The notes under the pieces: model-generated | What the model was told of the DNA's origin: nothing | What the model saw: only the letters and a program-made list of their open reading frames with translations | Database searches by the model: none | Source of the DNA: a virus | Virus genome (UHGV): UHGV-0272730 | Direction: 5' to 3' (one strand) | DNA: 64,000 bases | Made by a program: the position numbers and the translations under genes | Shown here: piece after piece, positions 6,629 through 32,725 of the stretch | How the letters are laid out: each line of letters begins with the position of its first letter | How positions within the stretch are numbered: the stretch's first letter is position 1

Positions 6629-8245
6629 TCAACGTCTAAGCCCCTCATATGGGTTTCCTCTCACTAAGTCTGTGTGAGCACCCATTGATGGCGGCTTGAA
6701 TAATTTAACTTCGTTAAGACTGTTGAAAGCATCACTGGTAGCATCCACTTGGTCATCTTTAGTTTTACCATCACCACAAAAGCCTTCAAGCTCTTGGAAG
6801 TAAGCTTCATTCCAACTACCTCTCAAGACTTTTACAAGTCCAGCTTCAGAAGCAGCAGAAAACCCCGCAAATCGGGTAACTTTATCTTTATTTGTTGGTT
6901 TAGCTCTTGCACGATAGCCTTTCTCGGCAAGTTTCCTGATGAGGGATGTCGCGTAGGATTTACCAGCAGCGCCTGGGTCTTGAGGGATAAAAATACCAGT
7001 TCGCTTACCGTCACTTTCAGCAGTCAAATTAATTTGTGTTTCGACTCCAGAGGGTCTATCTCTAAATCTTACTACATCAATGATATAATAGCAACCGTCT
7101 TTTTTAGATTTACCCATCTTAACACCTGCTGTCCAGTCTGGATTAGGGTTAATCTCAGATGGTAAAGTTGCTGCTAAGTCCCATGCTCTAACATCGAATA
7201 CATCTTCTGGGAGTGAATCAACAATCTCACACCATTGTCTTTGCCAATAGTTTGAACCTTCTGCACGAGCCTTCCAGTTACCGAAACGAAGTCTTGCAAC
7301 GTTTACAGGGGTGTTGTTTTCCAACTTACCACGGTACTTAGGCTCTAAGAAGTCAAGGATTGGGTTATCATCAATCGTACCAGAGATAAAGGTGTATGTT
7401 TGAGGAATCTCAAGAGGAAACATTTCAAGAATCTTGTCTCTCTCCCAATCAGAAACCATAACACCATCATTCATTACATACCAACGAATACGACCACACT
7501 TTTCAGGGTCTGGGTAACCTTCTTCATCTAAGAAGGGTTCTACCCAATCATAAATAAAGTGGTCTCTATCTGGGTTCATAGAAATCTTCATGTATGAGTC
7601 ACTTTCAGCACCAGAACGTAGACGAGTCTGTAGGTATGAAATCTGTGAAGCAGAGAAGTGTGTACCTTCGTCAAAGTAGATAGCTGAGTATTCAATACCC
7701 TGATGACCTTCAGCGTGCTTTTCAAGTTCTAGGTAGGTAAACTTGATAGTTGCCCCAGAAGGGAATGTGATAGTCATCTTCTGCTCATGAGGAACCCCAC
7801 CAAACTTACCAAATAGTTTCTTTGCAGCAGGCCATAAACCACCTTGTAACTGTGTTGTATTTTGACGGAAATATACAGCATTATAGTTAGGGTCTTCAAT
7901 AAACCTTAAAGAGTCCATTAATAATGCAGCAGTTTTACCAGCACCAGCAGCACCACCATAGAGAACCAAGTCAGCATTAGTATTTAAAAAGACCTCTTGA
8001 GAACCCGGCTGAGGGGCTACATAGTTCTTATCAGTCATCAATTTGAAGATAAGTCTAACTTGGTCTGGTGTGTATCTTAATAAAGTCAGAATTTGAGTTG
8101 GAAGGAATTTAGAGGGGTCTTTACCGTATGATTTGATAATTTCTTTTACTTCATCAGAAAGCCCCAACTCTCCAGCTAGGACTTTCCTAACATCTTCCAC
8201 TCGCTTCTGCTTAATAGCATTTAAGTCCATTAAGCACCTCCGCAA
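6629..8245 (-). CDS. terL: terminase large subunit
   Basis: 538 aa; N-terminal ATPase with Walker A-like VLYGGAAGAGKT and C-terminal nuclease-like half; directly precedes portal. Confidence 0.8.
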   Translation of the reverse strand: MRRCLMDLNAIKQKRVEDVRKVLAGELGLSDEVKEIIKSYGKDPSKFLPTQILTLLRYTPDQVRLIFKLMTDKNYVAPQPGSQEVFLNTNADLVLYGGAAGAGKTAALLMDSLRFIEDPNYNAVYFRQNTTQLQGGLWPAAKKLFGKFGGVPHEQKMTITFPSGATIKFTYLELEKHAEGHQGIEYSAIYFDEGTHFSASQISYLQTRLRSGAESDSYMKISMNPDRDHFIYDWVEPFLDEEGYPDPEKCGRIRWYVMNDGVMVSDWERDKILEMFPLEIPQTYTFISGTIDDNPILDFLEPKYRGKLENNTPVNVARLRFGNWKARAEGSNYWQRQWCEIVDSLPEDVFDVRAWDLAATLPSEINPNPDWTAGVKMGKSKKDGCYYIIDVVRFRDRPSGVETQINLTAESDGKRTGIFIPQDPGAAGKSYATSLIRKLAEKGYRARAKPTNKDKVTRFAGFSAASEAGLVKVLRGSWNEAYFQELEGFCGDGKTKDDQVDATSDAFNSLNEVKLFKPPSMGAHTDLVRGNPYEGLRR

Positions 8246-14376: not shown

Positions 14377-14383
14377 ATTAATT

Positions 14384-14582: not shown

Positions 14583-14622
14583 TAAAGGGTATTAAACACA
14601 TTGTCAATACCCTTTTTAAAAC
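14583..14622. terminator. hairpin with flanking T/A tracts (possible bidirectional terminator)
   Basis: GGGTATTAAACACATTGTCAATACCC followed by TTTTTTAAAA on plus; lies just downstream of minus gene ending at 14626. Confidence 0.4.
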
Positions 14623-14625
14623 TTT

Positions 14626-16122: not shown

Positions 16123-16494
16123 TTATTTTTTGAGAGTCGCTACAGCAGAGAACGTTGGTTTGTTATCTGTCTGTGGCTGACCACCATTATCAGGGGTCTT
16201 CTTAGTGTCTGCTGCAATTGCTTTCATCTCACCTGCTGAGTGAGTCATGATAGTTTTACCGACCTCAATCATACTCTTGATGGTTACGTCATCTGTGTTT
16301 AACCCGAACTCTGCAAGCTTAGCAGCATCCCTTGTAACAATCGCCTCAAACAGCTTTGCAGCAAACTCAGCAGAATTATCAATGGTCAGTTGAGCTTTTA
16401 CGAGTGAGCTTTTGTTACGAGAGCCTTTTGGTCTTCCAGATGGGTTTCCAGACTGGCCTTTTTTAAACTGGCCTTTGTTTGTTCTGTTTTTCAT
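16123..16494 (-). CDS. hypothetical protein with basic GNPSGRPKG N-terminus
   Basis: 123 aa ORF; KKGQSGNPSGRPKG motif then helical domain. Confidence 0.45.
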   Translation of the reverse strand: MKNRTNKGQFKKGQSGNPSGRPKGSRNKSSLVKAQLTIDNSAEFAAKLFEAIVTRDAAKLAEFGLNTDDVTIKSMIEVGKTIMTHSAGEMKAIAADTKKTPDNGGQPQTDNKPTFSAVATLKK

Positions 16495-16905: not shown

Positions 16906-17120
16906 AAATCGCAGATATTATAGATTTATATCAAACTGCAAAGAGTCATGGCTATATAACCTCAATTGGAAAGAATAGTCACTATGATGCTTTGACTGGA
17001 ATGTATTTCAGGGCAATGGCTCAATCTAGTGAACAACACTTAATGGTTTCTTCCAGTGAGTTTACTTCGTTTCTCTATTGCAGCAAAATTATAAATCGCA
17101 GGAGAACTGAAAAATGTTAA
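16887..17120 (+). CDS. hypothetical protein
   Basis: 77 aa ORF, operon-like overlap with neighbours. Confidence 0.35.
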   Translation: MCSSQLEIADIIDLYQTAKSHGYITSIGKNSHYDALTGMYFRAMAQSSEQHLMVSSSEFTSFLYCSKIINRRRTEKC

Positions 17121-17704: not shown

Positions 17705-17751
17705 GTGTGAATAGGGGCTTATGCCCCTTTAACTATTTATAAGGATATTTA

Positions 17752-18123
17752 ATGAAAGCTAAGAGTGCAAAAGACTTTTATTGCTTCCTACAATCCTATA
17801 TCAATTCCGTGCAAAATGGTGAAAGGTACAACCTTAATGATGTTATCCCAACACCTTTGACATGGAGACTCAGTAAATGGCCTGAAGAAGATATTACACC
17901 AACAATCGAACAGCGTACCTACAAACCTGAAATCAATATTCCAGACTCTGATAATCTATTATACCCAATGTTCCATATTGTTGGTCTTGGAAGATTCCTT
18001 ATGGATATCCAGTATGTAATTGGTAAAGGTTATAAGGTTAAAGGTATTGTCGTTGGTGATGTATCTCCGAATCACAAAGGTTATTTTAGACTAAACGCAC
18101 ATTTAGAGGCTGAAAAGAAATGA
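17752..18123 (+). CDS. hypothetical protein, paralogue of N-terminus of next gene
   Basis: 123 aa; shares RY-(N/D)...W-PE-DI...YKP...LLY...FMD-QY-I motifs with 18120..19004 product. Confidence 0.45.
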   Translation: MKAKSAKDFYCFLQSYINSVQNGERYNLNDVIPTPLTWRLSKWPEEDITPTIEQRTYKPEINIPDSDNLLYPMFHIVGLGRFLMDIQYVIGKGYKVKGIVVGDVSPNHKGYFRLNAHLEAEKK

Positions 18124-19004
18124 TTAAAGCAAAGACTTACCCAGACTTCAAAGAGTTTGTGAAGGGCTTCATTGCAAACGTAAAGGCTGGTAAGAGATAT
18201 GATTTTAGAACATATCAAGAGGCTATTTTACCACTTACCTATAGTTCATATTGGCCTGAAGCTGATATTGCAGAAGTTGAGAAGTTTGACTACAAACCAG
18301 ACTACAAAGTCCCATTTAGTGATGAGTTGCTTTACAGCGTTGGTGCTCAAATGAGAACTTCTGACTTCTTCATGGACTTACAATATGCAATTATCAATGG
18401 TAAAGATGTTGATACAGTTTATTGTGAATGGCTGGCAAGGGTTAAACCATTCTCAATGTTGAATGCTAAGTTGAAGGATGCTATCAAGCCACCAGCAATT
18501 ACTCAGCAGCCAACAGGTCAAACAGTTAATGAGGGTGGCACACTTACTCTAACCATTCTAGCAACTAACGCCACTGGATATCAGTGGAAAAAGGATGGTG
18601 AGGACATCCCTAGTGCCAATTCTGCAACTTACACAAAACAGTCAGTAGCACCTTCTGACGCTGGTTCATACACTTGTGTTGTATCTGGAGAAGGTGGAAC
18701 AAGTGTTACCTCAGATGCAGCAACAGTGACTGTGAACGCACTACCTGTGATTACCAAGCAACCTTCTAACCAGACTATTAATGAAGGTGGAAACATCAAC
18801 TTAGCAGTTACTGCAACAGGTGCAACAGGTTACCAGTGGAAGAAAGGTGAGGAAGATATCCTTGATGCAACCGCTGCAACTTACACTAAAGAAGGTGCAA
18901 CCGCTGCTGATTCAGGAAGCTACACCTGTGTAGTTACTGGTGCAGGTGGCTCTGTAACATCTAATGCAGCAACAGTTACAGTTAACCCAGCAGGGGAGGC
19001 ATAA
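18120..19004 (+). CDS. protein with two tandem Ig-like repeats
   Basis: 294 aa; C-terminal half has two roughly 90 aa repeats (...TGYQWKK(D/G)(G/E)EDI...ATYTK...GSYTCVV(S/T)G...ATVTVN). Confidence 0.5.
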   Translation: MIKAKTYPDFKEFVKGFIANVKAGKRYDFRTYQEAILPLTYSSYWPEADIAEVEKFDYKPDYKVPFSDELLYSVGAQMRTSDFFMDLQYAIINGKDVDTVYCEWLARVKPFSMLNAKLKDAIKPPAITQQPTGQTVNEGGTLTLTILATNATGYQWKKDGEDIPSANSATYTKQSVAPSDAGSYTCVVSGEGGTSVTSDAATVTVNALPVITKQPSNQTINEGGNINLAVTATGATGYQWKKGEEDILDATAATYTKEGATAADSGSYTCVVTGAGGSVTSNAATVTVNPAGEA

Positions 19005-19468
19005 TGCAACTCTCAAGAAAAGGTTTAGAGGCTATTAAGTTCTTTGAAGGTCTGAAGTTAGAGGCTTACGAAGACTCTGCCGGAATCCCAACAATCGGGT
19101 ATGGGACAATCCGTATTGACGGAAAACCTGTTAAGATGGGTATGAAAATTACTGCTGAACAAGCTGAACAGTATCTTCTTGCAGATGTTGAGAAGTTCGT
19201 TGCAGCAGTGAATAAAGCTATCAAGGTTCCAACTTCTCAGAACGAGTTCGATGCACTTGTAAGTGAAACATACAACATCGGTATCACAGCTATGCAGGAT
19301 TCTACATTTATCAAGCGCCACAATGCTGGTAATAAGGTCGGTTGTGCAGAAGCTATGCAGTGGTGGAACAAGGTTACAGTCAAAGGTAAGAAGGTCACTT
19401 CAAACGGCCTGAAAAACAGACGTAGAATGGAAGCTGACATTTATCTTGACAGTGTATATCCAAAGTAA
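19004..19468 (+). CDS. lysozyme (GH24-like endolysin)
   Basis: 154 aa; N-terminal GLEAIKFFEGLKLEAYEDSAGIPTIGYGT matches the catalytic EG...Y.D..G..TIGYG region of phage lysozymes. Confidence 0.8.
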   Translation: MQLSRKGLEAIKFFEGLKLEAYEDSAGIPTIGYGTIRIDGKPVKMGMKITAEQAEQYLLADVEKFVAAVNKAIKVPTSQNEFDALVSETYNIGITAMQDSTFIKRHNAGNKVGCAEAMQWWNKVTVKGKKVTSNGLKNRRRMEADIYLDSVYPK

Positions 19469-19478
19469 TATCTTCATA

Positions 19479-19504
19479 GGCTCCTTCGGGAGCCTTTTTT
19501 ATTT
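19479..19504 (+). terminator. rho-independent terminator after lysozyme
   Basis: GGCTCCTTCGGGAGCC hairpin followed by TTTTTTATTTT. Confidence 0.6.
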
Positions 19505-19519
19505 TCTAAGGAGAAAATT

Positions 19520-19918
19520 ATGAAACTTTGGGCTAGTGACTTTGGAACTTTTAAGTACACTCGTAATGGCTCGCTTGTACGCATTGTCGGGAACAATGTG
19601 GTTTCAAGAGGTGACAAAGTATATACACGGTTTACTGTAGAGCTTGTTGAACTGTCACCTATTGAGTCTGTGAACAATGGCCTGTTCAAGTTTGAGACTT
19701 ACAATGTCAACGAACATGGACAATTCAACCCTCTTGGCGAAAGTGGACTTGATATTATTTCAGAGCACCCATTGACAAAAGAGCAACTCGCAAGTTATTA
19801 TAAAACTGTTCTGGAAAGGCAGTTAGCAACACATGAACAAGAAGCTAACTATCATTTACAACATTGCGAAGCTTTAAGAGCAAAAATAGAACAAGCAGAG
19901 AGAGGTTTTTATGAATAA
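19520..19918 (+). CDS. hypothetical protein
   Basis: 132 aa ORF with GGAG SD upstream. Confidence 0.45.
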   Translation: MKLWASDFGTFKYTRNGSLVRIVGNNVVSRGDKVYTRFTVELVELSPIESVNNGLFKFETYNVNEHGQFNPLGESGLDIISEHPLTKEQLASYYKTVLERQLATHEQEANYHLQHCEALRAKIEQAERGFYE

Positions 19919-20300
19919 AGAGATTCAAGTAAAAGTTGACACCTTTGGCCATGATGGTCGAGAAGATGCTGGACTTGCTGAAGCAGTGATTTTTGAGTGT
20001 AATGGGAATATTAGTCTTCGCTTTACAGGCTCAGGTAGCACCCTTCGCAGAATGCGAGATGATGCAGATGGTTGCCCTGTATTTGGCTGGTATGACATGG
20101 AGTTTCCTCTTTACGCCATCCATTATCCAGATGGTGGAGAAGACTGGACAACTCAATCAATCCGCGATGAGCTTAATGGCATTCCAGTTGAGCAAGAAGA
20201 GCAAGAGCCTGTTGAACTCACCTTCACTTTTATCAAAGAAGAGAAAGTTGGTGATTTGTCTGTAACTGAAGCAATTCAAGTCTCACAGGTTGTTCGTTAA
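19911..20300 (+). CDS. hypothetical protein
   Basis: 129 aa ORF, overlaps neighbour (operon). Confidence 0.45.
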   Translation: MNKEIQVKVDTFGHDGREDAGLAEAVIFECNGNISLRFTGSGSTLRRMRDDADGCPVFGWYDMEFPLYAIHYPDGGEDWTTQSIRDELNGIPVEQEEQEPVELTFTFIKEEKVGDLSVTEAIQVSQVVR

Positions 20301-20593
20301 TGAGTAAAGTACAGGTTGTTTTCCCTATTTGTGACTTCTCACTAGAGCGTGAACTTGACCTGTACGAAGAAATTACTGACGAAATTATCTGGTCTGTTGT
20401 AGAAGAGGCTATCAAGAAGCTGTATGGTGGCCTCTTAAATCCATCAAGTAAGAAGTTAAGCACTAAGCAAGTAGCTGACCCATATGTTTCATACGATGCC
20501 TGCAACAAGCCTTTTGAAAATACCTGCTTTGACCTTATGGTAGGTAATAACAAAGTCAACTATTTCTTCGTCAGAGAGTTTAACGATGAGTAA
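20300..20593 (+). CDS. hypothetical protein
   Basis: 97 aa ORF. Confidence 0.4.
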   Translation: MSKVQVVFPICDFSLERELDLYEEITDEIIWSVVEEAIKKLYGGLLNPSSKKLSTKQVADPYVSYDACNKPFENTCFDLMVGNNKVNYFFVREFNDE

Positions 20594-20930
20594 GCTCCAT
20601 GTCACAGTTTACAAAAACTTCTCAGATATCAAAGAGTCTTTAACAAACAAGCTTGATATGCAACGGAAAAGACTCTTTTTAATGTATGACATAGACAACT
20701 ACAACCATCCTAAAGAGTTTAACTACAAAGATGGTACAAAGGTTGTTGAGTTTGAAGATTCTGTGACGGTGTATGTAAAATATGACTTACCAGCAAAGTA
20801 TATAGGGATGTTAGAGTACTACATATTCAAACATACTGGTATGCGTGGTGAGTCTGTCAAGATATCTTCTATAGAAGTTTTTGAGAAACCTAACACACAA
20901 CTTAAAAAGTATTTAATGAGGAAACTGTAA
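20586..20930 (+). CDS. hypothetical protein
   Basis: 114 aa ORF. Confidence 0.4.
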   Translation: MSKLHVTVYKNFSDIKESLTNKLDMQRKRLFLMYDIDNYNHPKEFNYKDGTKVVEFEDSVTVYVKYDLPAKYIGMLEYYIFKHTGMRGESVKISSIEVFEKPNTQLKKYLMRKL

Positions 20931-21511
20931 TGTCCGAAGAGCAACAGAATATCACGCCACAAGTAACACTGGTACAGCATTTTGGAAATATTGAAGGGTG
21001 TATTGCACTTTTTCAACCAAATATCAACTCTCCTGTAAAAGTTTGTAAGTTGACTATGAATGTTAACAACATCAGTGTTTGCCTTGTTGAAGAAGTTCAA
21101 TATTTCAAGTTCAATGACAGAGAGGTTGATGCCGCACTATTGAAGTATCGAGCAAACCTCGAAAAAGACATTGACCACAAAGAGCTTGTAACACTGTTTG
21201 GTGACCTTCACAAGCTTCTTGAAAAGGTTATGAAGCGCACATACTACATGAACAACGGTTCAATCATCACCACTTTGATTTCACCATGTATTTCAGAGCC
21301 AATTTTAACTGATGACGGTGGATACTACGTGGTAGCATCAGCAGATTCTGATTGGTGGATGAAAAATACAGCACTGAAAACGGTGATTGAAGCCATTCGT
21401 GAGCATATCCCTTCATTCAGCCCGTGGAAAGGTAAAAGTGATGATTTCATTGCACTATTGAGTGAAGAGAGTAACAAGCGCAGTGCATTGCTGCCTAAAA
21501 AATACTCTTGA
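20930..21511 (+). CDS. hypothetical protein
   Basis: 193 aa ORF. Confidence 0.45.
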   Translation: MSEEQQNITPQVTLVQHFGNIEGCIALFQPNINSPVKVCKLTMNVNNISVCLVEEVQYFKFNDREVDAALLKYRANLEKDIDHKELVTLFGDLHKLLEKVMKRTYYMNNGSIITTLISPCISEPILTDDGGYYVVASADSDWWMKNTALKTVIEAIREHIPSFSPWKGKSDDFIALLSEESNKRSALLPKKYS

Positions 21512-21583
21512 CCGAGTATACAATATTGACTATGATGGGAGCTATCGAGAGGTAGTTCCCTTTTTAGTTTCTGGAGAATAGTT

Positions 21584-22129
21584 ATGGCTAAAGTGAAAGA
21601 GCACGATAAAATTATTTTGTATGTTAAACAGAATCCTTCAAAGAGTGTTGAGGCTGTTGTAACACACATCTCACACAATGGTACAGTTTATTTCCGACCA
21701 CTGAAGAACTTAGACTTTGACACAACACCAAACCACACATTCAGTACTTCTGCAAGACTGTGTGCAGGTACTGTATACTCAACTGCTGAGATTGATTCCT
21801 TATCTTTCACAGGTGCTTACAAAAACTTTATAGGGATTGCCCTAAAGGACTCTGAAGAATCTTTTAAATTTTTCATGGAGACTAATAAAGGTTGCTACGC
21901 ACATGTTATGCCAGTCTATAAGAAAGTTGACACAGAGCTTACCAGTAAGTGCGAAGAGATTAGTAGTGACCTGAAGGAGCGCAAAACAGCTATTCAGAAT
22001 GCCATTTACATCATTGAGAGGAACCATTTAGAAGTTCTTTTCAGAGATATGCTAAAAGCAGGGTTTACCCCAAACGAAATTACAAGAGAAACACAACGCC
22101 AGTTCAGAAACGCTATGGTGAAAGAATGA
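21584..22129 (+). CDS. hypothetical protein
   Basis: 181 aa ORF. Confidence 0.45.
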   Translation: MAKVKEHDKIILYVKQNPSKSVEAVVTHISHNGTVYFRPLKNLDFDTTPNHTFSTSARLCAGTVYSTAEIDSLSFTGAYKNFIGIALKDSEESFKFFMETNKGCYAHVMPVYKKVDTELTSKCEEISSDLKERKTAIQNAIYIIERNHLEVLFRDMLKAGFTPNEITRETQRQFRNAMVKE

Positions 22130-22344
22130 AAAAACTAACTACAGTTGAAGACTACTACAAACTGTCCCTGTTAGAGCAGTATCGTAGGAGCCAGAATATC
22201 AGAAAATGCTACGGTAAACACGCTGAAGGTGACTTTTACCGTTGCTACGATGCAGATTTAAAAGGTGTAACACCTAGAGGGAAAGTCCTGCAAAGACTTG
22301 TTGACCTTGAGTGGAACAAACGATTGAGAGGGGTTGGGAAATGA
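22126..22344 (+). CDS. hypothetical protein
   Basis: 72 aa ORF. Confidence 0.35.
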   Translation: MKKLTTVEDYYKLSLLEQYRRSQNIRKCYGKHAEGDFYRCYDADLKGVTPRGKVLQRLVDLEWNKRLRGVGK

Positions 22345-22844
22345 TTTACGAAGAAAGATACAAGATAGATTATCAGAAGACTGGTCATCATACTTCACTA
22401 AGAGTAACCAAACCAAATGGGGATACTGGTATCATAGCACATTTTGGTGGTGATTATTGGTACGGTACAGGTTGCTTTGAAGGCTACACTCAAGAATACT
22501 TAAAAGCTTTCTACAGAGACTTTACAAATGACTACAACAGGGTTGTTGAAGAGAAGAATAAGTGCATTAAGCATGAATACCATGCTAGAGGTTGTCTGAA
22601 TATTGTTATGATACTGGTTTTCTTCTTAGCAACATTACTAGCTGTATCAGCAATCAGCTACATAGCTCAAGACTTGACCATTACACAGATTACTGCAAAG
22701 TTGCATGATGTCTGGTACTTGTATGTTGTTCCTTTAGCTGGTATCATCATCTCACTAATGAGGTTCAGAGTTCATAAGAAACGACTTAAGGATTCTGAGG
22801 TTAAACTTGAAGAGGTAAGTAAAGAATGCAACCTACAATTATAG
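22311..22844 (+). CDS. hypothetical membrane protein (two C-terminal TM helices)
   Basis: 177 aa; IVMILVFFLATLLAVSAISYIA and WYLYVVPLAGIIISLM hydrophobic segments. Confidence 0.45.
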   Translation: MEQTIERGWEMIYEERYKIDYQKTGHHTSLRVTKPNGDTGIIAHFGGDYWYGTGCFEGYTQEYLKAFYRDFTNDYNRVVEEKNKCIKHEYHARGCLNIVMILVFFLATLLAVSAISYIAQDLTITQITAKLHDVWYLYVVPLAGIIISLMRFRVHKKRLKDSEVKLEEVSKECNLQL

Positions 22845-22920
22845 CTGTATGTATTCGTTTTGCAATCGCTGAAATGATTAACAAGGCAATCTTAAAAGAT
22901 GCCTATGGAGAGACTAAGTA

Positions 22921-23145
22921 ATGATTAAGACACCTGTACCAATTTTTGGATTTCCTTCTATAGAAGAGTTCAAAGTTTATCTTGACAAAAACTTCTACAA
23001 CGAGCAGCCTGTTACTTTGCTGAAGAGTGACTTATCAGAGCTTCTTGATATGGTTATCAAGGCAACTTCTGAGAAGGAGCCTGAACAGAAAGCTGAGAAG
23101 AAGACTAGTAAGAAATCCGATAAGAAGACTGAAAAGTCTGAGTAA
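22921..23145 (+). CDS. hypothetical protein with lysine-rich tail
   Basis: 74 aa ORF. Confidence 0.35.
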   Translation: MIKTPVPIFGFPSIEEFKVYLDKNFYNEQPVTLLKSDLSELLDMVIKATSEKEPEQKAEKKTSKKSDKKTEKSE

Positions 23146-23198
23146 TAGCTTGAGGGGTTACTTGATAGCCCCTTTGTAGGAACTTAGAAGGTAGCGAA

Positions 23199-23621
23199 AT
23201 GAAAGAGCTTATTGGTAAAAGATTGACAGTTTACTGCTCTAAAACAAAGAAACCACTTACTTCTGTGAAGGTCTTTGATGTTGACACCACTGGTGTAGAG
23301 TACCCAATCCAATGCACAATAATTACTCCATTCCATGCAGATGATATGGATTTTAAAGAGTGTGAAGTGATATCTTTTAATGCTGATGGGTATTGGAGAG
23401 GTAAGTTAAACAAGCAATCAGAAGATTTTGATATGCAAATCCTTATCAATGAAGGCTATATCGGTGTAAAAGATATCCTCGTAGAAGCCTATGAAGAAGG
23501 TATAATTGATATTGTGCATGATGTTGAAAAAGCTTTAAAGCTTGTTATGCCGCATTTAGAATCTGGAAAGCTGACTTTAGAGATGCTTAATAGGGTTATT
23601 CGGAGAGCTTATGAAAATTAA
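23199..23621 (+). CDS. hypothetical protein
   Basis: 140 aa ORF with GGTAGCGAA SD region. Confidence 0.45.
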   Translation: MKELIGKRLTVYCSKTKKPLTSVKVFDVDTTGVEYPIQCTIITPFHADDMDFKECEVISFNADGYWRGKLNKQSEDFDMQILINEGYIGVKDILVEAYEEGIIDIVHDVEKALKLVMPHLESGKLTLEMLNRVIRRAYEN

Positions 23622-24075
23622 AGAAGTAGTTCAAAGAGCAATGCTTGACAATTCTACTAAAGATGAGATGTACACAGAAATTTGTGATAAGTTGAACTGC
23701 TCAAGACATGCTGCTAAGGTTCTTGTACACTGTTTTATCTGGGAATGCTCAGAAGCTTATATGAAACACGTAGCTTTTGAGAGTTCTCATTTACTCGGTG
23801 ATGCAAAAATAGGTGTAGCACTAAAAGAGCCTGAGATGAAAACAGTACCTAAAGTTGGTAATGTGTATAAACTAAAAAATTTTATTACAGGCGAGATTGT
23901 TGCAGAAGGTGAAGTGCAACAGGTTTATCATGATGGTAAATATCTGTTTAAGATATTCGAGTATGATAGTCGTTACAGACACTTATGTGGTATTACATTT
24001 TTAGTTTCAGAGGATGACCTCATCAAGAACAATAGTAATAAATTCGCAGTACCAGAATATCAAGTTTTACGATAA
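23611..24075 (+). CDS. hypothetical protein
   Basis: 154 aa ORF. Confidence 0.45.
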   Translation: MKIKEVVQRAMLDNSTKDEMYTEICDKLNCSRHAAKVLVHCFIWECSEAYMKHVAFESSHLLGDAKIGVALKEPEMKTVPKVGNVYKLKNFITGEIVAEGEVQQVYHDGKYLFKIFEYDSRYRHLCGITFLVSEDDLIKNNSNKFAVPEYQVLR

Positions 24076-24088
24076 TGGTGTGATAGAT

Positions 24089-24637
24089 ATGGAAAAAGAT
24101 AACTTAAAAGAAGTTGAAGGTAACTACTTAGTACTTGACTGGAAGGATGTTCGGGAAGCACTCTCCGAAGAAAATCTTGACTGGTTCGAACAAATTATCT
24201 TTGCAGTACGGCATAACCGAGAAGTTGAAAATGGTAAAGAGCCACTTGAAGGAATCTTTGTAGAAAGGTCTTATCCGTTCTATGAAGACACTTTGCAGAA
24301 AGTTAAGATGTACTTTAAACAGAAGAACCGTAAAGTGGTCACTATGGTATCTCTTGGTGGACAGAGTATGTCTGTGATGGAAGATATCAACCCTAAGAGA
24401 CCGAGTAAAGGTGTTTGTATAAAAATCACAGGACATGAAGAGTATATCTCAGTGGCTGACTTTAGTGCATTCTGTAGTGGTTCTTGTGTCTTTAATGGTT
24501 TTCACTATGATATCCGAGTGTACCCAATCAAGGGAGATGCTGTTATGATGCAGATATTCGATAACAATAATGGATTTACTCATTTTTATCAGACAACCAA
24601 GTCATCCCTAAAAACAGTTCTGGAAACACTGATTTAA
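24089..24637 (+). CDS. hypothetical protein (start moved to internal ATG)
   Basis: Track ORF 24014..24637 overlaps upstream gene; ATG at 24089 lies 14 nt after upstream stop. Confidence 0.4.
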   Translation: MEKDNLKEVEGNYLVLDWKDVREALSEENLDWFEQIIFAVRHNREVENGKEPLEGIFVERSYPFYEDTLQKVKMYFKQKNRKVVTMVSLGGQSMSVMEDINPKRPSKGVCIKITGHEEYISVADFSAFCSGSCVFNGFHYDIRVYPIKGDAVMMQIFDNNNGFTHFYQTTKSSLKTVLETLI

Positions 24638-24647: not shown

Positions 24648-24673
24648 GAGCCTCCTTAATCGGGGGCTTTTTA
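24648..24673 (+). terminator. rho-independent terminator ending plus-strand block
   Basis: GAGCCTCCTTAATCGGGGGCT hairpin followed by TTTTT. Confidence 0.55.
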
Positions 24674-26262
24674 TTGAGTAAAATTTACGAAATTTATATT
24701 TTTTATAAAATTTTATCGGTTGTCCCAACCTCTGGGTCACCATCATATGTGAATAAAATATCTACCCTTCTTAACAACCTTCTTAATCTTACTCTCTATA
24801 TAGTTATATAGTACTATATAGTATCTTAGTAACTATCTAGTGGTCTTAATAGCCCTCTGTATAGCCCTTCTAAATAGCCCTCTAAACACTCTTCTAACAA
24901 GCCTTCTTAACAACCTATACAATCACCTTAACCATCTCTCTACACTCTCTTAGAAGCTCCTATACACCTCTTAATCTCTATGTCAGCTATGATACTCTCT
25001 ATAGGTGTTCACTAGGTGCTACTAAGCCTCTATATAGACTGTTTTAACAAACTTAACAGGAATATCTTTACAGACCTTATCTCACAAGGTCTAACACGGT
25101 ACTAACAAGGTATCTTATAAGCCTGTTATTACCTGTATTTTAGAAAGACTGTATAGGTAATTATTCAGATTTTTAAAATTTTTATAAAATAGGACTATCA
25201 AGTCATTTTTTAGGGTCTTTGAAGGAACTGAAAAATATCTGTAGAAGATGTATATCTGCTTGGTAGCCCTTAACAGCTCCCTTACAAGTACTTTGCAAAA
25301 TTTTAAAATATCCTTAACAATCTCTTAACAGCTCTAACACCTTCTTAACAACTCTTCAAAGGTCTTAACAGATTCTTAACAGAACTAACAAGAGCGTAAC
25401 AGTTTCTTAACAGTTGATACATAGGCTTTACAGAATCTTAACAGATGACTAACAAGAGCTAACAAGTTAATTTTTAAGAGTTATTTTGTTAAGATAATTA
25501 ACAAGTCTCTAACAAGTGTTTAATCTTTTTAACAAGCTATTAACATGGTCACTACTCTTTCTTATCGTTCCCTTTCCCTTCTTAGTGATTCTTTAAACAT
25601 ACCTCTTAAAAGCTCTCTATAGCTCTTTATAGCCTCTTTTAAGCCTCTTCCTAGTAGTTACACCCCAACTGTACAGATACCTCTTTATAGAGCTTTACAG
25701 GAGCTTTTAAGGCTATGTCAAAGACTCTTACAAGGCTTTTACGTGGCCTTAACAGAGATTTAACAAGGGGCTAACAAGTCTCTAACAAGTGCCTTAAAAG
25801 CATAACTATGTAGGGATTGTTAAGAAATTGTTAAGAGAATGTTAAGGGGGCTAGCATTTACGTAACTTTATAGCCCCTTTTACGTAACTTTTAAGCTACT
25901 TCAAAGTAACTTTATAGCCCCTATAACATACTTTTAAGACACTAACAAGCCCTTTTTAGATATTCACAAGAATACTAATGAGATGATAAAGCTTACACCC
26001 TTATAAGATTCTTTTAAGTCTCTGGGAAGCTTTATAAAGGGCTTTTAAGGGTGAGGTAATGCAATCCCTTAAGTTAGGTTGATAAGGCTGTTATAGAGCT
26101 TTATAGAGCGTTTAAATGGGCCATCCCCTTTCTGGGGTTATTGGCTTTTATTTAAGTTGATTTGATAAGAGGTTATAGAGTAGACTATAGAGTTATTGCT
26201 TTTAAGGTCTGATAAGATTCTGGAAAGGTGAGGGAAAGGGATTGTATAAGGATTCGATAGAC
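24674..26262. repeat. ORF-free repeat-rich region with iterated TTAACA(A/G) motifs
   Basis: No ORF of 60 aa or more on either strand; more than 20 copies of CTTAACAG/CTAACAAG, densest 25260-25800 at roughly 10-11 bp spacing; CTATATAG-type palindromes at 24800-25030. Confidence 0.6.
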
Positions 26263-26288
26263 GTAAAAAAGCCCCTTTAAATAGGGGC
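26263..26288 (-). terminator. rho-independent terminator ending minus-strand early block
   Basis: Minus strand hairpin GCCCCTATTTAAAGGGGC followed by TTTTTT. Confidence 0.55.
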
Positions 26289-26327
26289 TGTTCAGGTATC
26301 TGGGGCTATTTAGCCCCGCTGCGTCGA

Positions 26328-26576
26328 TTAGTTATAATCTTGCTTGTTGTAGTACAGGGAGACAATTTTTTCTCCCCAGTAGTGGTAGTGATATTCCTCG
26401 TTTATGGCTTCTTTTACAGCGTCCTTCCAAAAGTCATCGGTAGGGTTATAATCTGGTAGCACCTGCTGAATCAGCATTTTGATAAGGTCAAAGGTGTTAT
26501 TTGTTCCACCGATATCGAATTTTGCATCAAGTTCGTGGCAGCCATAAGCATTAACAGTTACGCGGATAGTTGACAT
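26328..26576 (-). CDS. hypothetical early protein
   Basis: 82 aa ORF preceded by conserved intergenic cassette with GGAG SD. Confidence 0.45.
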   Translation of the reverse strand: MSTIRVTVNAYGCHELDAKFDIGGTNNTFDLIKMLIQQVLPDYNPTDDFWKDAVKEAINEEYHYHYWGEKIVSLYYNKQDYN

Positions 26577-26640
26577 AATTTAGATTCTCCAGTTTAGGAC
26601 TTTACTTAGTGGGGGAGGTCATCCCCCGTTAATTAGTAAT

Positions 26641-26904
26641 TTACTGCATATTGGCGTATGTTGCAAGCCTTTTTTCGTTGTATTTTGTAAGAATCTCACA
26701 AGATACAACATCATACTTTGTGACAGCGTTGCCTTTATCGAGGTCAAAAAAGCCAAACGCTTTACCATCTTTGAATCCGACAACTTCGTAAGATTCTTTG
26801 ATGATTTCACCATTGAACAAATCACTTTCGATACGGTGAAATAATGCTACATCTTCTTTGTCGGTTGCAATTTGTAAAAGTGTGGTTAATTCTACGTTTT
26901 CCAT
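26641..26904 (-). CDS. hypothetical early protein
   Basis: 87 aa ORF preceded by cassette. Confidence 0.45.
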   Translation of the reverse strand: MENVELTTLLQIATDKEDVALFHRIESDLFNGEIIKESYEVVGFKDGKAFGFFDLDKGNAVTKYDVVSCEILTKYNEKRLATYANMQ

Positions 26905-26970
26905 CTTGATAACTCCAGTTTAGGATTTTATTTAGTGGGGAAGGCCATTCCCTCCCCGTTGATTGACAAT

Positions 26971-27501
26971 TTACAGACTTTTAATTGTCTCGTCAATATC
27001 TTTTTCAATGTCTTTTAAAGTTTTTTCTAAGTTCTTGATATTAAAGGATAAACCTTCACCAAGAGTCTTAGAGTAACCACTAGGACGTAAATTATACAGT
27101 TTAATTTCTTCCACTTTAAAGAGACTAACTAACTCACCGTTTACATCATAAGCCATTGAAACAGTATTTGCAGGTGCATTGTAAAACTTGTTTAAGGACT
27201 TGATAGAACGTTCATAAGCCATTTTATAACCATTTAAAAGGTTTTTAACGTGATTGTGAACGTTTTTACACTCATCTAAGTAAAGACCTAAAAACATCGG
27301 GAGAAGTTCCGCGACAGCTTGCATAAAGTGAGAAACTACAACAGTAGAAACATTACGACGATGGACGTAATAAGCTCCGTTTTCTGATTTAGTGATGGTT
27401 GCAAAGTGTACACCATTGCAACGAAATTCATAGGTATCTTTAACAGGCTTTGACATTACAGCATTTGAACGAATGAAGTTGATAGCTTGAAATTTGTTCA
27501 T
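26971..27501 (-). CDS. hypothetical early protein
   Basis: 176 aa ORF preceded by cassette. Confidence 0.45.
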   Translation of the reverse strand: MNKFQAINFIRSNAVMSKPVKDTYEFRCNGVHFATITKSENGAYYVHRRNVSTVVVSHFMQAVAELLPMFLGLYLDECKNVHNHVKNLLNGYKMAYERSIKSLNKFYNAPANTVSMAYDVNGELVSLFKVEEIKLYNLRPSGYSKTLGEGLSFNIKNLEKTLKDIEKDIDETIKSL

Positions 27502-27727
27502 TTTAGAATCTCCAGTTTAGGATTTTATTTAGTGGGGAAGGCCATTCCCTCCCGTTGATTAGTAATTTACTTGTTTTGATTTCTGATTGCAAGTAATTTT
27601 TTTTTTTTAAGTTTATCTATAAAGAATCTTTTAAGTTAATCCCTTTAAGATAAACCCCCTCGAACAAAGTTACCAATGTCAATGGGTATTGTCAACACTT
27701 TTTTGAAAGTTTTTTGTAAGTTATTGA

Positions 27728-28069
27728 TTAACTGATGAATATTTTTTCAGGTTTTACATAGCTGATACGCTGACTTTTTAGCAGGTCATCCCAGATTAAC
27801 GCGGCGATATGGGCATAACCGGATTCACGTAAAAGTTTCATTGTTTTACTTCTCGTTTCAAAACGGCTTGCATAGTACTCACTATTCAGCGTCGTTTTAT
27901 TCCCTTCGTTGTCTACATGGATAATCTGCATCACTTGAAAGGGGCTTGTGTCCTCGCCTTTATTCCACTGTTCAAAGTATTTTAGGCACTGCATAGGTGA
28001 CATCTTATCACTGACCTGAGTTGACCATGATGCGCCAGCTTTATCGGTAATTACGGTTACATAAGCCAT
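27728..28069 (-). CDS. hypothetical early protein
   Basis: 113 aa ORF preceded by cassette. Confidence 0.45.
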   Translation of the reverse strand: MAYVTVITDKAGASWSTQVSDKMSPMQCLKYFEQWNKGEDTSPFQVMQIIHVDNEGNKTTLNSEYYASRFETRSKTMKLLRESGYAHIAALIWDDLLKSQRISYVKPEKIFIS

Positions 28070-28159
28070 TTTTAGATTCTCCAGTTTAGGATTTTATTTA
28101 GTGGGGAAGGTCATTCCCTCCCCGTTGATTGACAATTTACAGATTTTTATCAGGCTTGT

Positions 28160-28393
28160 CTAGTCTTTTTCAATGATAATTTCATACTGGCCATCTACGC
28201 TGTCAAAATAGACACCGTCTTCATCTTCTGTCTTAAAGTAGCATTGAATATCATCACTGGCGGGATAGTCTTGCCTTGCTATCTGGCAAACTTGAATAGC
28301 ATTTTCTTTACTTCCTGTAAACTCTTCAAGCCCTTTAAAGTCACATGAATGGCCATTACAGATGGAAAGGATGAGGTAAATGGTTGTAAGCAT
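28160..28393 (-). CDS. hypothetical small secreted or lipoprotein-like protein
   Basis: 77 aa; hydrophobic N-terminus MLTTIYLILSICNG with Cys near predicted cleavage site. Confidence 0.4.
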   Translation of the reverse strand: MLTTIYLILSICNGHSCDFKGLEEFTGSKENAIQVCQIARQDYPASDDIQCYFKTEDEDGVYFDSVDGQYEIIIEKD

Positions 28394-29424: not shown

Positions 29425-29628
29425 TTATTTGTTATTTTTGACAACTTTTAAAACTGCAAGATAGCCTAAGCAATAAGAATCACCGAAGAGAGTCCTACCC
29501 ATGAAAGAATCCTCTTTGATATCCTTTGCAGTGACAGTTTTTTCTACGCCGTGGGAAAGGACTATATCGCCAACTTTGATATCTTTGATGTGTGTAGTTT
29601 CAATGGTTAAATCATTAATAATAGCCAT
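29425..29628 (-). CDS. hypothetical early protein
   Basis: 67 aa ORF preceded by cassette. Confidence 0.4.
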   Translation of the reverse strand: MAIINDLTIETTHIKDIKVGDIVLSHGVEKTVTAKDIKEDSFMGRTLFGDSYCLGYLAVLKVVKNNK

Positions 29629-29732
29629 TTTTTGAATCTCCTAGTTTAAGGACTTTACTTAGTGGGGAAGGTCATTCCCTCCCCGTTGATGTGTAATTTA
29701 ATCTATCTAAAAACCAGTGTCAACAAAATTTT

Positions 29733-30223: not shown

Positions 30224-30496
30224 TTACATTAAATGCAGTTTTTTGCCTTTTACTATAATGTAACTCGATGTGCTATTGCTTTGCACATCTTGATAAATTC
30301 TGCGCAAACGGCCTTCATAGTGTACTTTCCAGCTAGTTGGAATCTTTTTCCCGTATCCGGTAGCAGTTTTTTGGAGTCCTGCTACTTGCCAATCTAAGAT
30401 GTGTTGCTCAGCTTGTAAATCATCAAAGCACATTACACCATCAACATAGTGACGTAGAGTGACATTTAAAGTACGACCGTTGTTAGTAGTATACAT
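30224..30496 (-). CDS. hypothetical early protein
   Basis: 90 aa ORF preceded by cassette. Confidence 0.45.
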   Translation of the reverse strand: MYTTNNGRTLNVTLRHYVDGVMCFDDLQAEQHILDWQVAGLQKTATGYGKKIPTSWKVHYEGRLRRIYQDVQSNSTSSYIIVKGKKLHLM

Positions 30497-30585
30497 TTTT
30501 GAATCTCCTAGTTTAAGGACTTTATTTAGTAGGGAGGTTATTGCCTCCCCGTTGATGTGTAATTTAATCTATCTAAAAATCAGTG

Positions 30586-32278: not shown

Positions 32279-32662
32279 TTATTTGTTAATTTTGAAGATA
32301 GTTACATAACCATCACTACCGATTATTTGAGACACTCCAGCTTTTTCTACTTTATAGCCCATATTTTCAAGATGATAAACAGCATCATCATAACCATATG
32401 CGCCACCCTGATAACGTCTCTTATCACATTTTATCAGGTTTTTACCACGTCCAGCAAGTGCATGTAAAATGGCTTTTTCACTTGAAAGAGTACCATCTAA
32501 CATGGTTGCCGTGTAATGGTTGATTCTATTCCCGTTTACATCATACTTAAAATTGAATGCGTGAACAATGATAATGTTACCTTTAAAATTTTCATCAAGT
32601 GACTTCTCCAGTGCGTTGCGAAAGTTGTCCTTGTTGATGAATTTAGGTGCACGATAAGCCAT
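32279..32662 (-). CDS. hypothetical early protein (first gene of early block)
   Basis: 127 aa ORF; preceded by cassette and candidate promoter. Confidence 0.45.
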   Translation of the reverse strand: MAYRAPKFINKDNFRNALEKSLDENFKGNIIIVHAFNFKYDVNGNRINHYTATMLDGTLSSEKAILHALAGRGKNLIKCDKRRYQGGAYGYDDAVYHLENMGYKVEKAGVSQIIGSDGYVTIFKINK

Positions 32663-32725
32663 TTTTGAATCTCCAGTTTAGGACTTTATTTAGTGGGGAA
32701 GGTCATTCCCTCCCCGTTGATGCAA

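What the first reader, a model, noticed from the sequence alone, without database searches (positions are those of the whole stretch)
24674..26262. 1.6 kb ORF-free region with iterated TTAACA(A/G) motifs between convergent terminators
No ORF of 60 codons or more on either strand. The plus strand is pyrimidine-rich and carries more than 20 CTTAACAG/CTAACAAG repeats at roughly helical phasing (25260-25800), plus CTATATAG-type palindromes (24800-25030) and short direct repeats (25800-25930). Plus-strand and minus-strand gene blocks both terminate at its borders. This is the architecture expected for a replication origin with iterons, a protein-binding array, or a genome terminus/packaging region.
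Basis: seen in the sequence. Interest (0 to 1): 0.6.

Follow-up and report, generated by a model that had tools for sequence, protein, structure and literature searches.

The report
Phage genome ends: direct terminal repeat
The repeat-filled gene-free stretch holds the ~590-bp sequence (25262-25851) that sits at both ends of the packaged DNA of this Felix O1-like phage, a feature already known for the genus, though its phased TTAACA array has not been described in the papers I could search.

Summary
Window 24674-26262 has no ORF above 56 codons. It lies between two intrinsic terminators and carries 26 plus-strand TAACA(A/G) copies, against 1.8 expected from shuffles. The copies are phased at 10.4 bp.

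The window is a Felixounavirus (Felix O1-like myovirus). The core of the region, 25262-25851 (590 bp), is the direct terminal repeat (DTR) of the virion DNA:
- Two GenBank relatives carry exact 591-bp and 581-bp duplicates at both record ends. Both map to exactly these coordinates.
- At least five other records open at or near one of the two borders.
- The homologous interval in UAB_Phi87 is 614 bp, against the 608-bp DTR measured there.
- Both borders are invariant across two genera and are inverted copies of one motif, TAGCCC(CC)TTAACA.

"Protein-binding array" is plausible but unproven. "Replication origin" has no support.

My inference is that the array is the docking platform for the packaging recognition protein. 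A candidate small terminase is the DUF5681 protein at 16123-16494, which has an AT-hook-like arm. The repeat unit also resembles host ArcA sites.

This is a known kind of feature in a genus where it is already known. Interest is low to moderate.

The parts
24652..24673 (+). Intrinsic terminator that closes the + strand gene block (last gene 24014-24637)
   Evidence: Hairpin CTCCTTAATCGGGGG followed by CTTTTTATTG. Annotated as a rho-independent terminator at the same place in KhF2.
24674..25261 (.). Left unique non-coding flank. In the virion this is the last unique sequence before the right-hand DTR copy. It contains CTATATAG repeats (24796-24841), three ATAGCCC(T)TCTAAA units (24850, 24862, 24875), 6 TAACAR copies and two copies of a 34-nt A/T-rich element (24678-24711, 25157-25190).
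   Evidence: Column identity across 9 phages of two genera is 0.9-0.98 for 24920-25240, higher than in the ends of the flanking genes (about 0.73). The first A/T-rich element is deleted in three relatives.
25262..25851 (.). Direct terminal repeat (DTR) of the virion DNA, 590 bp. It is present once in this collapsed or permuted sequence and twice (one copy at each end) in packaged DNA.
   Evidence: ZX4221 record: bases 1-591 equal bases 88668-89258, and they map to window 25851..25262. vB_EcoM_D4 record: an exact 581-bp duplicate at both ends with the same mapping; PhageTerm reported a DTR for this phage. pEP20 starts at 25262. Seyj1-1 ends at 25831 and restarts at about 25854. UAB_Phi87's homologous interval is 614 bp against the measured 608 bp. 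The DTR is single-copy in the window.
25262..25276 (+). Left DTR border motif GG-TAGCCC-TTAACAG (presumed terminase cut or nick site)
   Evidence: GTGTATATCTGCTT|GGTAGCCCTTAACA is invariant in 9 of 9 phages, including Mooglevirus Sf13/Sf17. Erwinia phage Prophecy's record starts AGCCACTTTTACA.
25271..25546 (+). Main head-to-tail array of 17 TAACA units with spacings of 9-11, 20, 31, 39 and 44 bp. Read on the - strand the unit is yTGTTAaGA.
   Evidence: A subset of 15 copies (25315-25530) gives period 10.25 bp with R=0.91.
25750..25789 (+). Four TAACA(A/G) units at exact 11-bp spacing, in helical register with the main array 209 bp upstream
25816..25855 (-). Three inverted units (TTGTTAAGA, 11-bp spacing) that run into the right DTR border ATGTTAAGGGGGC|TAGC. 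The reverse complement CTA|GCCCCCTTAACA mirrors the left border.
   Evidence: Nearly invariant in 9 phages. GCTAGC occurs only here in the 64 kb.
25852..26262 (.). Right unique non-coding flank (the first unique sequence after the left-hand DTR copy). It holds 22-bp repeats x3 (25857-25922), each carrying TAGCCCC, and is an indel hotspot in relatives.
26270..26289 (-). Intrinsic terminator that closes the - strand gene block (last gene 26328-26576)
   Evidence: AGCCCCTATTTAAAGGGGCT followed by TTTTTACGTC
6629..8245 (-). Large terminase (TerL), the enzyme expected to cut at the DTR borders
   Evidence: TIGR01630 psiM2_ORF9 terminase large subunit, E=6e-24. The window aligns at 96.8% DNA identity over a 4-kb stretch of UAB_Phi87 (record 83604-87603) that includes its annotated terminase large subunit gene.
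16123..16494 (-). Candidate small terminase / DTR-recognition protein: 123 aa, DUF5681, with an N-terminal FKKGQSGNPSGRPKGSRNK AT-hook-like arm followed by a helical core
   Evidence: PF18932, 54 bits against a cut-off of 27.5. The motif is invariant or nearly so in 24 homologues. In unrelated phage contigs the DUF5681 gene lies directly upstream of, and overlaps, a Terminase_6N/Terminase_3 gene. The role here is inferred, not shown. The AF2 model is poor and has no fold matches.

Best explanation
The region is the concatemer junction / terminal region of a Felixounavirus that packages DNA with short, exact, non-permuted direct terminal repeats. Window 25262-25851 is the DTR itself. 24674-25261 and 25852-26262 are the unique non-coding sequences next to the right and left genome ends. 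The two border terminators stop the converging transcription units before they enter the junction.

Mechanism:
1. In replicating concatemers one DTR copy separates genome units (general knowledge for DTR phages, restated in PMC10438801).
2. The terminase (TerL, 6629-8245) cuts at the two conserved border sites. These are inverted copies of TAGCCC(CC)TTAACA, so the same recognition element is read on opposite strands at the two borders. The DTR is duplicated so that every virion carries it at both ends. This step is inferred by analogy with T7-type phages.
3. The 19-22 helically phased yTGTTAaGA units inside the DTR most likely form a one-sided cooperative docking surface for the DNA-recognition component of the packaging machinery. 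My candidate is the DUF5681 protein at 16123-16494. Its AT-hook-like arm could read the TTAA minor groove of each unit. This step is inference only.

Sub-probabilities: region contains the DTR at these coordinates, about 0.93. Array is a packaging-recognition platform, about 0.45. DUF5681 protein is the binder, about 0.3.
For: Taxon: 256 phage records match at up to 95% identity, mostly named Felixounavirus members with Mooglevirus at 60-80%.

DTR evidence:
- An exact 591-bp terminal duplicate in ZX4221 and an exact 581-bp one in vB_EcoM_D4 both map to 25262..25851. PhageTerm reported a DTR for D4.
- 279 places in 253 records for the 590-bp query, so up to about 26 records hold a second copy.
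- Records of pEP20, GE_vB_B1, Seyj1-1, humlepung and ECOH1 open at or within about 20 bp of one of the two borders.
- Published DTR sizes are 608 bp (UAB_Phi87, by Bal31 plus run-off sequencing) and 581 bp (Pr103Blw). Border-motif-delimited lengths in 9 phages are 569-614 bp.
- In UAB_Phi87 the only SpeI sites within record 5000-26000 (13014 and 19582) bracket the homologous interval 15152-15765. They predict end fragments of 4431 and 2751 bp, against the published Bal31-sensitive fragments of 4322 and 2819 bp.

Borders and array:
- The borders are invariant across two genera.
- Array statistics and 10.4-bp phasing are conserved in all 9 phages.
- The same motif array sits at the start of the Erwinia phage Prophecy record, although the DNA is otherwise unalignable.

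Other:
- DUF5681 lies next to TerL in unrelated phages.
- Promoter-like sites are not above chance and there is no Rfam match.
Against: No reads or virion DNA of this particular phage were available, so the DTR is assigned by homology (92-95% identity, borders identical).

The SpeI fragment sizes predicted for UAB_Phi87 differ from the published ones by +109 and -68 bp. The mirror placement of the ends in that fragment is excluded only by the GenBank terminal duplicates.

Exact ends may be off by 1-4 nt. Prophecy starts 3 nt inside the equivalent left border.

Nothing shows what binds the array. The central part of the DTR (25440-25560) is the least conserved part. No small terminase is annotated in the genus. 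The DUF5681 model is low-confidence with no structural match.
Confidence: 0.85

Rival explanations
1. Iteron-type replication origin. The phased TTAACA units bind an initiator, and the A/T-rich tracts (24678-24711, 25157-25190) melt to start replication. This could be instead of, or in addition to, the terminal-repeat role.
For: Many same-orientation short repeats at helical phasing. Two A/T-rich 34-nt elements sit nearby. The non-coding DNA is highly conserved. DTRs of other phages are said to take part in replication and concatenation.
Against: The array is bounded exactly by the DTR borders. One A/T-rich element is deleted in Felix O1, nataliec and UAB_Phi87. Flanking genes show no initiator or helicase-loader signature. 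GC skew tracks transcription direction and shows no separate origin signal. No literature evidence for an origin here.
Confidence: 0.12
2. Host response-regulator platform. The units, read as TGTTA(A) direct repeats at 11-bp spacing, are binding sites for phosphorylated ArcA (or another OmpR/PhoB-family winged-helix protein). The protein coats each genome end, or the array titrates the regulator.
For: ArcA-P recognises 10-bp direct repeats ATGTTAAAAA with a TGTTA core at 11-bp centre-to-centre spacing, with extra repeats at 11 or 22 bp (PMC4173790). The phage unit is yTGTTAaGA at 11, 20-22 and 31 bp. The motif is conserved in phages of E. coli, Salmonella, Shigella and Erwinia.
Against: The 3' flank differs from the ArcA unit: G in 103 of 219 units where ArcA prefers A. 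The 5' base is T or C rather than A. Host promoters carry 2-5 repeats, not about 20. No link between ArcA and Felix O1-type phages was found. A phage-encoded binder explains the conservation equally well.
Confidence: 0.07
3. A non-coding RNA gene or RNA-level element (for example a protein sponge) transcribed from the ORF-free region.
For: 1.6 kb of conserved non-coding DNA with a strand-biased motif.
Against: Sigma-70-like sites are not above chance (10 found against 6.8 +/- 2.6). Terminators at both borders face inward. No Rfam family matches. The unit phasing equals the DNA helical repeat, which is a DNA-level property. The Felix O1 paper found no promoters here.
Confidence: 0.03
4. The terminal duplicates in the GenBank records are assembly artefacts caused by the internal repeats, and the real ends lie elsewhere.
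For: Some relatives do carry artefactual overlaps: 542 bp in UAB_Phi87 (window 9826-10367) and 427 bp in Sf17 (window about 26592-27017).
Against: Two independent assemblies give the same two borders to the base. The size matches wet-lab and PhageTerm values. The Bal31-sensitive SpeI fragment brackets this locus. UAB_Phi87's arithmetic (87,603 - 542 + 608 = 87,669, the published size) shows its record overlap is not its DTR.
Confidence: 0.03

Closest known systems
Direct terminal repeats of Felixounavirus phages (UAB_Phi87, 608 bp, by Bal31 plus run-off sequencing; Pr103Blw, 581 bp, by PhageTerm; Felix O1 'short terminal repeats')
   Same: Same genus, homologous sequence, same length class, same borders. 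The window's element is a member of this set.
   Different: The papers I could read give only the size. None gives the location between the converging gene blocks, the inverted border motif or the phased TTAACA array.
T7/T3-type concatemer junction. From my own knowledge: a short DTR, duplicated at packaging, with arrays of short repeats (SRL/SRR in T7, Dunn & Studier 1983) next to the terminal repeat. The general mechanism is restated in PMC10438801.
   Same: Short exact DTR, one copy per concatemer junction, non-coding surroundings rich in short iterated motifs, sequence-specific ends.
   Different: Myovirus with a Mu-like portal and an archaeal-type TerL. The DTR is 3-4 times longer. The repeats lie inside the DTR and are in helical register. 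Genes converge on the junction instead of reading away from the left end. No phage RNA polymerase promoter is involved.
Multi-site small-terminase recognition regions (lambda cosB R sites, SPP1 pacL/pacR boxes). From my own knowledge.
   Same: Several short protein-binding repeats next to the terminase cut site, thought to wrap DNA on an oligomeric recognition protein.
   Different: Those have 3-7 sites. This region has about 20 sites spanning about 590 bp and contains two cut sites. The binder is unidentified.
ArcA-P / OmpR-PhoB family direct-repeat sites (PMC4173790)
   Same: TGTTA core, head-to-tail orientation, 11-bp spacing with further units at one or two more helical turns.
   Different: The flanking bases differ. 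Copy number is four to ten times higher. The location is in phage genome ends, not at a promoter. Binding is untested.
Plasmid R1 parC centromere: ten 11-bp iterons bound by ParR. From my own knowledge.
   Same: Tandem 11-bp iterons that form a one-sided protein-DNA superstructure.
   Different: No ParM/ParR-like genes were recognised among the ten ORFs next to the region that I screened. Lytic phage. The array coincides with the packaging ends.

Membership tests
Short exact direct terminal repeat of a DTR-packaging phage | The same sequence is present at both ends of the linear virion DNA | tested here: met
   Met for close relatives: exact 591-bp (ZX4221) and 581-bp (vB_EcoM_D4) duplicates at record ends, homologous to 25262-25851. 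Not directly testable for this isolate because no reads are available.
Short exact direct terminal repeat of a DTR-packaging phage | Fixed, non-permuted ends at conserved sequence positions | tested here: met
   Identical borders in two independent records. Five more records open at or near a border. Border sequences are invariant in 9 phages.
Short exact direct terminal repeat of a DTR-packaging phage | Length agrees with measured DTRs of the genus | tested here: met
   590 bp here. 569-614 bp between border motifs in 9 phages. Published values are 608 and 581 bp.
Short exact direct terminal repeat of a DTR-packaging phage | Exonuclease (Bal31) sensitivity of the restriction fragments that contain the locus | tested here: inconclusive
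   The in-silico SpeI map of UAB_Phi87 puts the locus in the 6568-bp fragment, giving arms of 4431 and 2751 bp against the published 4322 and 2819 bp. The location agrees; the sizes are off by about 70-110 bp.
Short exact direct terminal repeat of a DTR-packaging phage | Two-fold read coverage and read-start peaks at the borders in this phage | not testable with these tools
   No sequencing reads are available.
Iteron-type replication origin | Iterons next to an essential A/T-rich unwinding element and a cognate initiator gene | tested here: not met
   Iteron-like units are present. However, one A/T-rich element is deleted in three relatives, and the neighbouring ORFs have no initiator signature.
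Iteron-type replication origin | Replication initiates at the site | not testable with these tools
   Needs marker-frequency or 2D-gel data.
ArcA-P (OmpR/PhoB-type) binding site | At least two head-to-tail TGTTA cores at 11-bp centre-to-centre spacing | tested here: met
   21 direct and 4 inverted TGTTA cores; most neighbours are 11 bp apart. Definition taken from PMC4173790.
ArcA-P (OmpR/PhoB-type) binding site | Full 10-bp unit ATGTTAAAAA (A-rich 3' flank, A at -1) | tested here: not met
   The logo of 219 units gives T or C at -1 (185 of 219). After TGTTA the bases are A (149), then G (103) against A (49), then A (115).
ArcA-P (OmpR/PhoB-type) binding site | Binding by phosphorylated ArcA | not testable with these tools
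   Needs a gel shift, footprint or ChIP.
Small terminase (for the DUF5681 protein at 16123-16494) | Gene adjacent to the large terminase gene | tested here: inconclusive
   In this phage it is 8 kb upstream of TerL in the same leftward gene block, separated by the tRNA block. In two unrelated phage contigs DUF5681 overlaps the start of a Terminase_6N/Terminase_3 gene.
Small terminase (for the DUF5681 protein at 16123-16494) | Small-terminase fold or oligomeric ring | tested here: inconclusive
   AF2 pLDDT 65.7. No Foldseek match with E<1. No PDB sequence match.

The most novel reading that the evidence does not exclude
Each end of the packaged genome carries about 20 helically phased TGTTA(A) direct repeats that are read by a host OmpR/PhoB-type response regulator (ArcA-P) rather than, or as well as, by a phage protein. 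Under this reading, end protection, circularisation or concatemer formation, or packaging of a virulent myovirus would be coupled to the host's redox state, or the infecting DNA would titrate ArcA. A less radical variant is that the array is the wrapping track for a new class of small terminase (DUF5681) that reads DNA through AT-hook-like arms in the minor groove.
Probability: 0.07. Interest if true: 0.75.

Novelty: already known. Interest (0 to 1): 0.3.

Why it matters
Practical value. The window's genome is a collapsed or permuted representation. Its true ends are at 25262 and 25851, and the physical genome is 590 bp longer than a single-copy assembly. Many Felixounavirus records are opened arbitrarily, and at least two (UAB_Phi87, Sf17) carry terminal overlaps that are not the DTR. 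The border motif TAGCCC(CC)TTAACA gives a simple way to place the ends in the roughly 250 related records and in engineering or therapy constructs.

Biological value. The anatomy of the ends gives testable handles on how a phage group described as having 'no small terminase' recognises its DNA. Those handles are the inverted border sites, a 10.4-bp phased array conserved as a motif even where the DNA no longer aligns, and a DUF5681 protein with an AT-hook-like arm.

None of this changes the classification. It is an ordinary feature of a known kind.

Tried and rejected
1. I first took the identical 542 bp at both ends of the UAB_Phi87 GenBank record (window 9826-10367, inside the tRNA block) to be its DTR. 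I rejected this because 87,603 - 542 + 608 = 87,669, the published size. The record overlap is therefore an assembly artefact and the 608-bp DTR lies elsewhere.
2. The LF82P9 record ends were uninformative. The record is opened at the terminase gene.
3. Sf17's 427-bp terminal overlap maps to about 26592-27017 and duplicates a gene. It is an assembly overlap, not the DTR.
4. The non-coding RNA reading failed: no Rfam match below E=0.7 and promoter-like sites at chance level.
5. The ten genes flanking the region all fall in PHROG families of unknown function and have no useful Pfam hits.
6. The 66-aa ORF just upstream of TerL (8252-8452) matched no family and was not pursued.
7. Structure prediction and fold search of the DUF5681 protein gave a low-confidence model and no significant matches. 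It also has no PDB sequence relative.
8. The IMG/VR scan for three TTAACA at 11-bp spacing mostly returned chance matches. Among the returned contigs, dense arrays (13 or more per 400 bp) occur only in relatives of this phage.
9. Literature searches found no description of the array, an origin, or ArcA involvement for Felix O1-type phages.
10. The mirror placement of the ends within the UAB_Phi87 SpeI fragment (record about 16764-17336, inside ORFs) was considered. I rejected it because the GenBank terminal duplicates fix the other placement.
Full report
**1. What the sequence shows**

Window 24674-26262 has no ORF longer than 56 codons on either strand. It lies between a + strand gene block (17114-24637) and a long - strand block (26328 to beyond 63 kb). 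Each block ends in an intrinsic-terminator hairpin with a T-tail, at 24652-24666 (+) and 26289-26270 (-).

The + strand carries 26 TAACA(A/G) copies in 1589 bp. That is 16.4 per kb against 0.75 per kb elsewhere in the window. Dinucleotide-preserving shuffles of the region give 1.8 on average and at most 7 in 2000 trials.

The 21 TAACA copies between 25262 and 25851 share one period of 10.4 bp (R=0.79). None of 2000 random placements reached this value. The register is kept across a 209-bp gap.

- CTATATAG-type repeats at 24796-24841
- 11-bp units x3 at 25816-25846
- 22-bp units x3 at 25857-25922

Only 'pyrimidine-rich' is overstated. The + strand is 53% pyrimidine.

**2. What organism and locus**

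The region matches 256 phage records at up to 95% identity. Most are named Felixounavirus members or coliphages and Salmonella phages of that group, and Mooglevirus matches at about 75%. The rest of the window fits this assignment. It holds 26 tRNA genes, a TerL, and rIIA/B-type early genes.

In every relative the stretch is a gene-free gap between the same converging genes. Only short, probably spurious ORFs are annotated there in some records.

**3. The key result: the array is the direct terminal repeat**

A sensitive search showed that several GenBank records of relatives begin or end inside the region, at two recurrent positions.

| Record | What it shows |
|---|---|
| ZX4221 (OR498728) | Exact 591-bp duplicate at its two ends; maps to window 25851..25262 |
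| vB_EcoM_D4 (PP886228) | Exact 581-bp duplicate at its two ends, same borders. Its authors ran PhageTerm and reported direct terminal repeats. |
| pEP20 | Starts exactly at 25262 |
| Seyj1-1 | Ends at 25831, restarts at about 25854 |
| GE_vB_B1, humlepung, ECOH1 | Open within about 20 bp of one of the borders |

A search with the 590-bp segment alone finds 279 places in 253 records. Up to about 26 records therefore hold a second copy.

Published measurements for the genus agree with this size:
- 608 bp in UAB_Phi87, by Bal31 digestion and run-off sequencing
- 581 bp in Pr103Blw
- 'short terminal repeats' in Felix O1

The interval of UAB_Phi87 homologous to 25262-25851 is 614 bp. The border-to-border length in nine phages is 569-614 bp.

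In UAB_Phi87 the only SpeI sites between record positions 5000 and 26000 bracket this interval. They predict terminal fragments of 4431 and 2751 bp. The published Bal31-sensitive fragments are 4322 and 2819 bp. The location agrees, but the sizes differ by about 70-110 bp. I record that test as consistent rather than exact.

An early false lead was the 542-bp identity between the two ends of the UAB_Phi87 record, which maps to the tRNA block. The arithmetic 87,603 - 542 + 608 = 87,669 (the published genome size) shows this is an assembly overlap and not the DTR.

**4. Anatomy of the ends**

The two borders are conserved to the base in nine phages of two genera:
- Left border: ...GTGTATATCTGCTT|GGTAGCCCTTAACAG...
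- Right border: ...ATGTTAAGGGGGC|TAGC...

The reverse complement of the right border (CTA|GCCCCCTTAACA) is a near copy of the left border. The DTR is therefore bounded by inverted copies of TAGCCC(CC)TTAACA, each ending in one unit of the array that points inward.

TAGCCC is itself enriched. Seven of its 13 plus-strand occurrences in 64 kb lie within 24674-26330.

Inside the DTR there are three groups of units:
- 17 head-to-tail units at 25271-25546
- 4 more at exact 11-bp spacing at 25750-25789
- 3 inverted units at 25816-25846

A logo of 219 units from nine phages reads yTGTTAaGA on the - strand.

Conservation is uneven:
- The left flank (24920-25240) and most of the DTR show 0.9-0.98 column identity. 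The ends of the flanking genes show about 0.73.
- The middle of the DTR (25440-25560) and the first 100 bp of the right flank are variable. They carry copy-number changes of the 22-bp repeat and small palindromic insertions.

The Erwinia phage Prophecy shares almost no alignable DNA here. Its record nevertheless starts AGCCACTTTTACA... and continues with about 11 direct TTAACA-type units and then about 15 inverted TGTTAAG units.

I scanned IMG/VR for three TTAACA at 11-bp spacing. Among the contigs it returned, dense arrays were found only in relatives of this phage. The motif array, not the exact sequence, is what the subfamily conserves.

**5. How it most likely works**

Shown here, by homology with explicit records and with wet-lab data on a relative: 25262-25851 is the terminal repeat, and the region as a whole is the concatemer junction.

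Established knowledge for DTR phages, restated in PMC10438801: concatemers contain one repeat copy per junction, and the second copy is synthesised during packaging.

My inferences:
- The large terminase (6629-8245) cuts or nicks at the two inverted border sites, reading the same element on opposite strands.
- The phased array is a one-sided, cooperative docking surface for the recognition component of the packaging machinery.
- The inward-facing terminators keep transcription out of the junction.

Felix O1-type phages are described as lacking a small terminase. While looking for a candidate binder I found that the 123-aa protein at 16123-16494 is a DUF5681 protein. It is the first gene of the leftward gene block that also contains the tRNA genes, TerL and the head genes.

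Its N-terminal motif, FKKGQSGNPSGRPKGSRNK, is invariant or nearly so in 24 homologues. From my own knowledge, this motif closely resembles the second AT-hook of HMGA1 (RGRPKGSKNK), a minor-groove binder of A/T tracts.

In two unrelated metagenomic phage contigs the DUF5681 gene lies immediately upstream of, and overlaps, a Terminase_6N/Terminase_3 gene. That is the classic small-terminase position.

The structure model is poor (pLDDT 66: a disordered arm followed by a helical core) and has no significant fold match. This assignment therefore remains a hypothesis.

**6. Rivals**

- **Iteron origin.** Not excluded as a second function, but it has no positive support. The array stops at the DTR borders. 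One of the two A/T-rich elements is deleted in three relatives. No initiator-like gene is nearby.
- **Host-regulator reading.** This is the most interesting alternative. ArcA-P binds TGTTA-core direct repeats at 11-bp spacing, with extra repeats one or two turns away (PMC4173790). That is the architecture seen here. However, the flanking bases differ from the ArcA unit, and I found no link between ArcA and these phages.
- **Non-coding RNA.** Unlikely.
- **Assembly artefact.** Contradicted by two independent assemblies, PhageTerm results and the Bal31 data.

**7. Comparison with what is known, and novelty**

The element is a member of the known set of Felixounavirus DTRs. It works like the T7/T3-type concatemer junction. 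I compare it with T7's SRL/SRR repeat arrays, with lambda cosB and SPP1 pac multi-site recognition, and with R1 parC iterons from memory only.

The papers I could search give the existence and size of the DTR in this genus. They do not give its position between the converging gene blocks, the inverted border motif or the phased array.

I therefore rate the feature 'already known', with modest added anatomical detail and one testable lead (DUF5681 as the missing small terminase). Overall interest is 0.3.

Noticed in passing
window 1-64000: GATC does not occur once on either strand in the 64 kb. Dinucleotide-preserving shuffles give 185 +/- 13. This is complete avoidance of the Dam / MboI-type site.
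   Followed up: partly
window 16123-16494 (-): A 123-aa DUF5681 protein with an AT-hook-like N-terminal motif (GNPSGRPKGSRNK). In unrelated phage contigs DUF5681 genes overlap the start of the large terminase gene. It is a candidate for the small terminase that Felix O1-type phages are said to lack.
   Followed up: partly
window 26579-26645, 27480-27570, 28065-28174, 29618-29700, 30490-30566, 32658-32721: A family of 60-110-bp repeated intergenic elements between the small genes of the - strand block next to the genome end. They are probably the repeated promoter-containing direct repeats that the Felix O1 paper mentions between genes 15-21.
   Followed up: no
JN225449 (L003/L004) record ends = window 9826-10367; MF327004 (L015/L016) record ends = window about 26592-27017: The GenBank records of UAB_Phi87 and Sf17 carry identical sequence at both ends (542 bp and 427 bp). 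This lies inside the tRNA block and inside a gene respectively. Both are assembly overlaps that could be mistaken for the DTR.
   Followed up: yes
window about 25247 and about 25948 (insertions present in relatives L021, L001, L008, L022): Small palindromic insertions sit just outside both DTR borders in some relatives: TTGATTCGGTAGAATCTACCTCAT in SP116, and TAGGATTCGATAGATTCCTATCTCA in nataliec, UAB_Phi87 and REP9. Both contain GATTC...GAATC arms. A related GGATTCGATAG lies at window about 26250.
   Followed up: no
window 24678-24711 and 25157-25190: Two copies of a 34-nt A/T-rich element ending in TTTTTATAAAAT. That 11-mer occurs nowhere else in the window. The first copy is deleted in Felix O1, nataliec and UAB_Phi87. 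The second is conserved in all nine phages.
   Followed up: partly
window 8675-16041: 26 tRNA genes on the - strand are interleaved with ORFs (one HNH-like). They are preceded by a 471-aa protein annotated as vWFA or RNA-binding in relatives and described as Ro60-like for Bas63 gp130. This block separates the DUF5681 gene from TerL.
   Followed up: no
window 8849-9646 (-): A 265-aa DUF7217 protein embedded in the tRNA block has weak similarity to tape-measure and GTP-binding-domain PHROG families.
   Followed up: no
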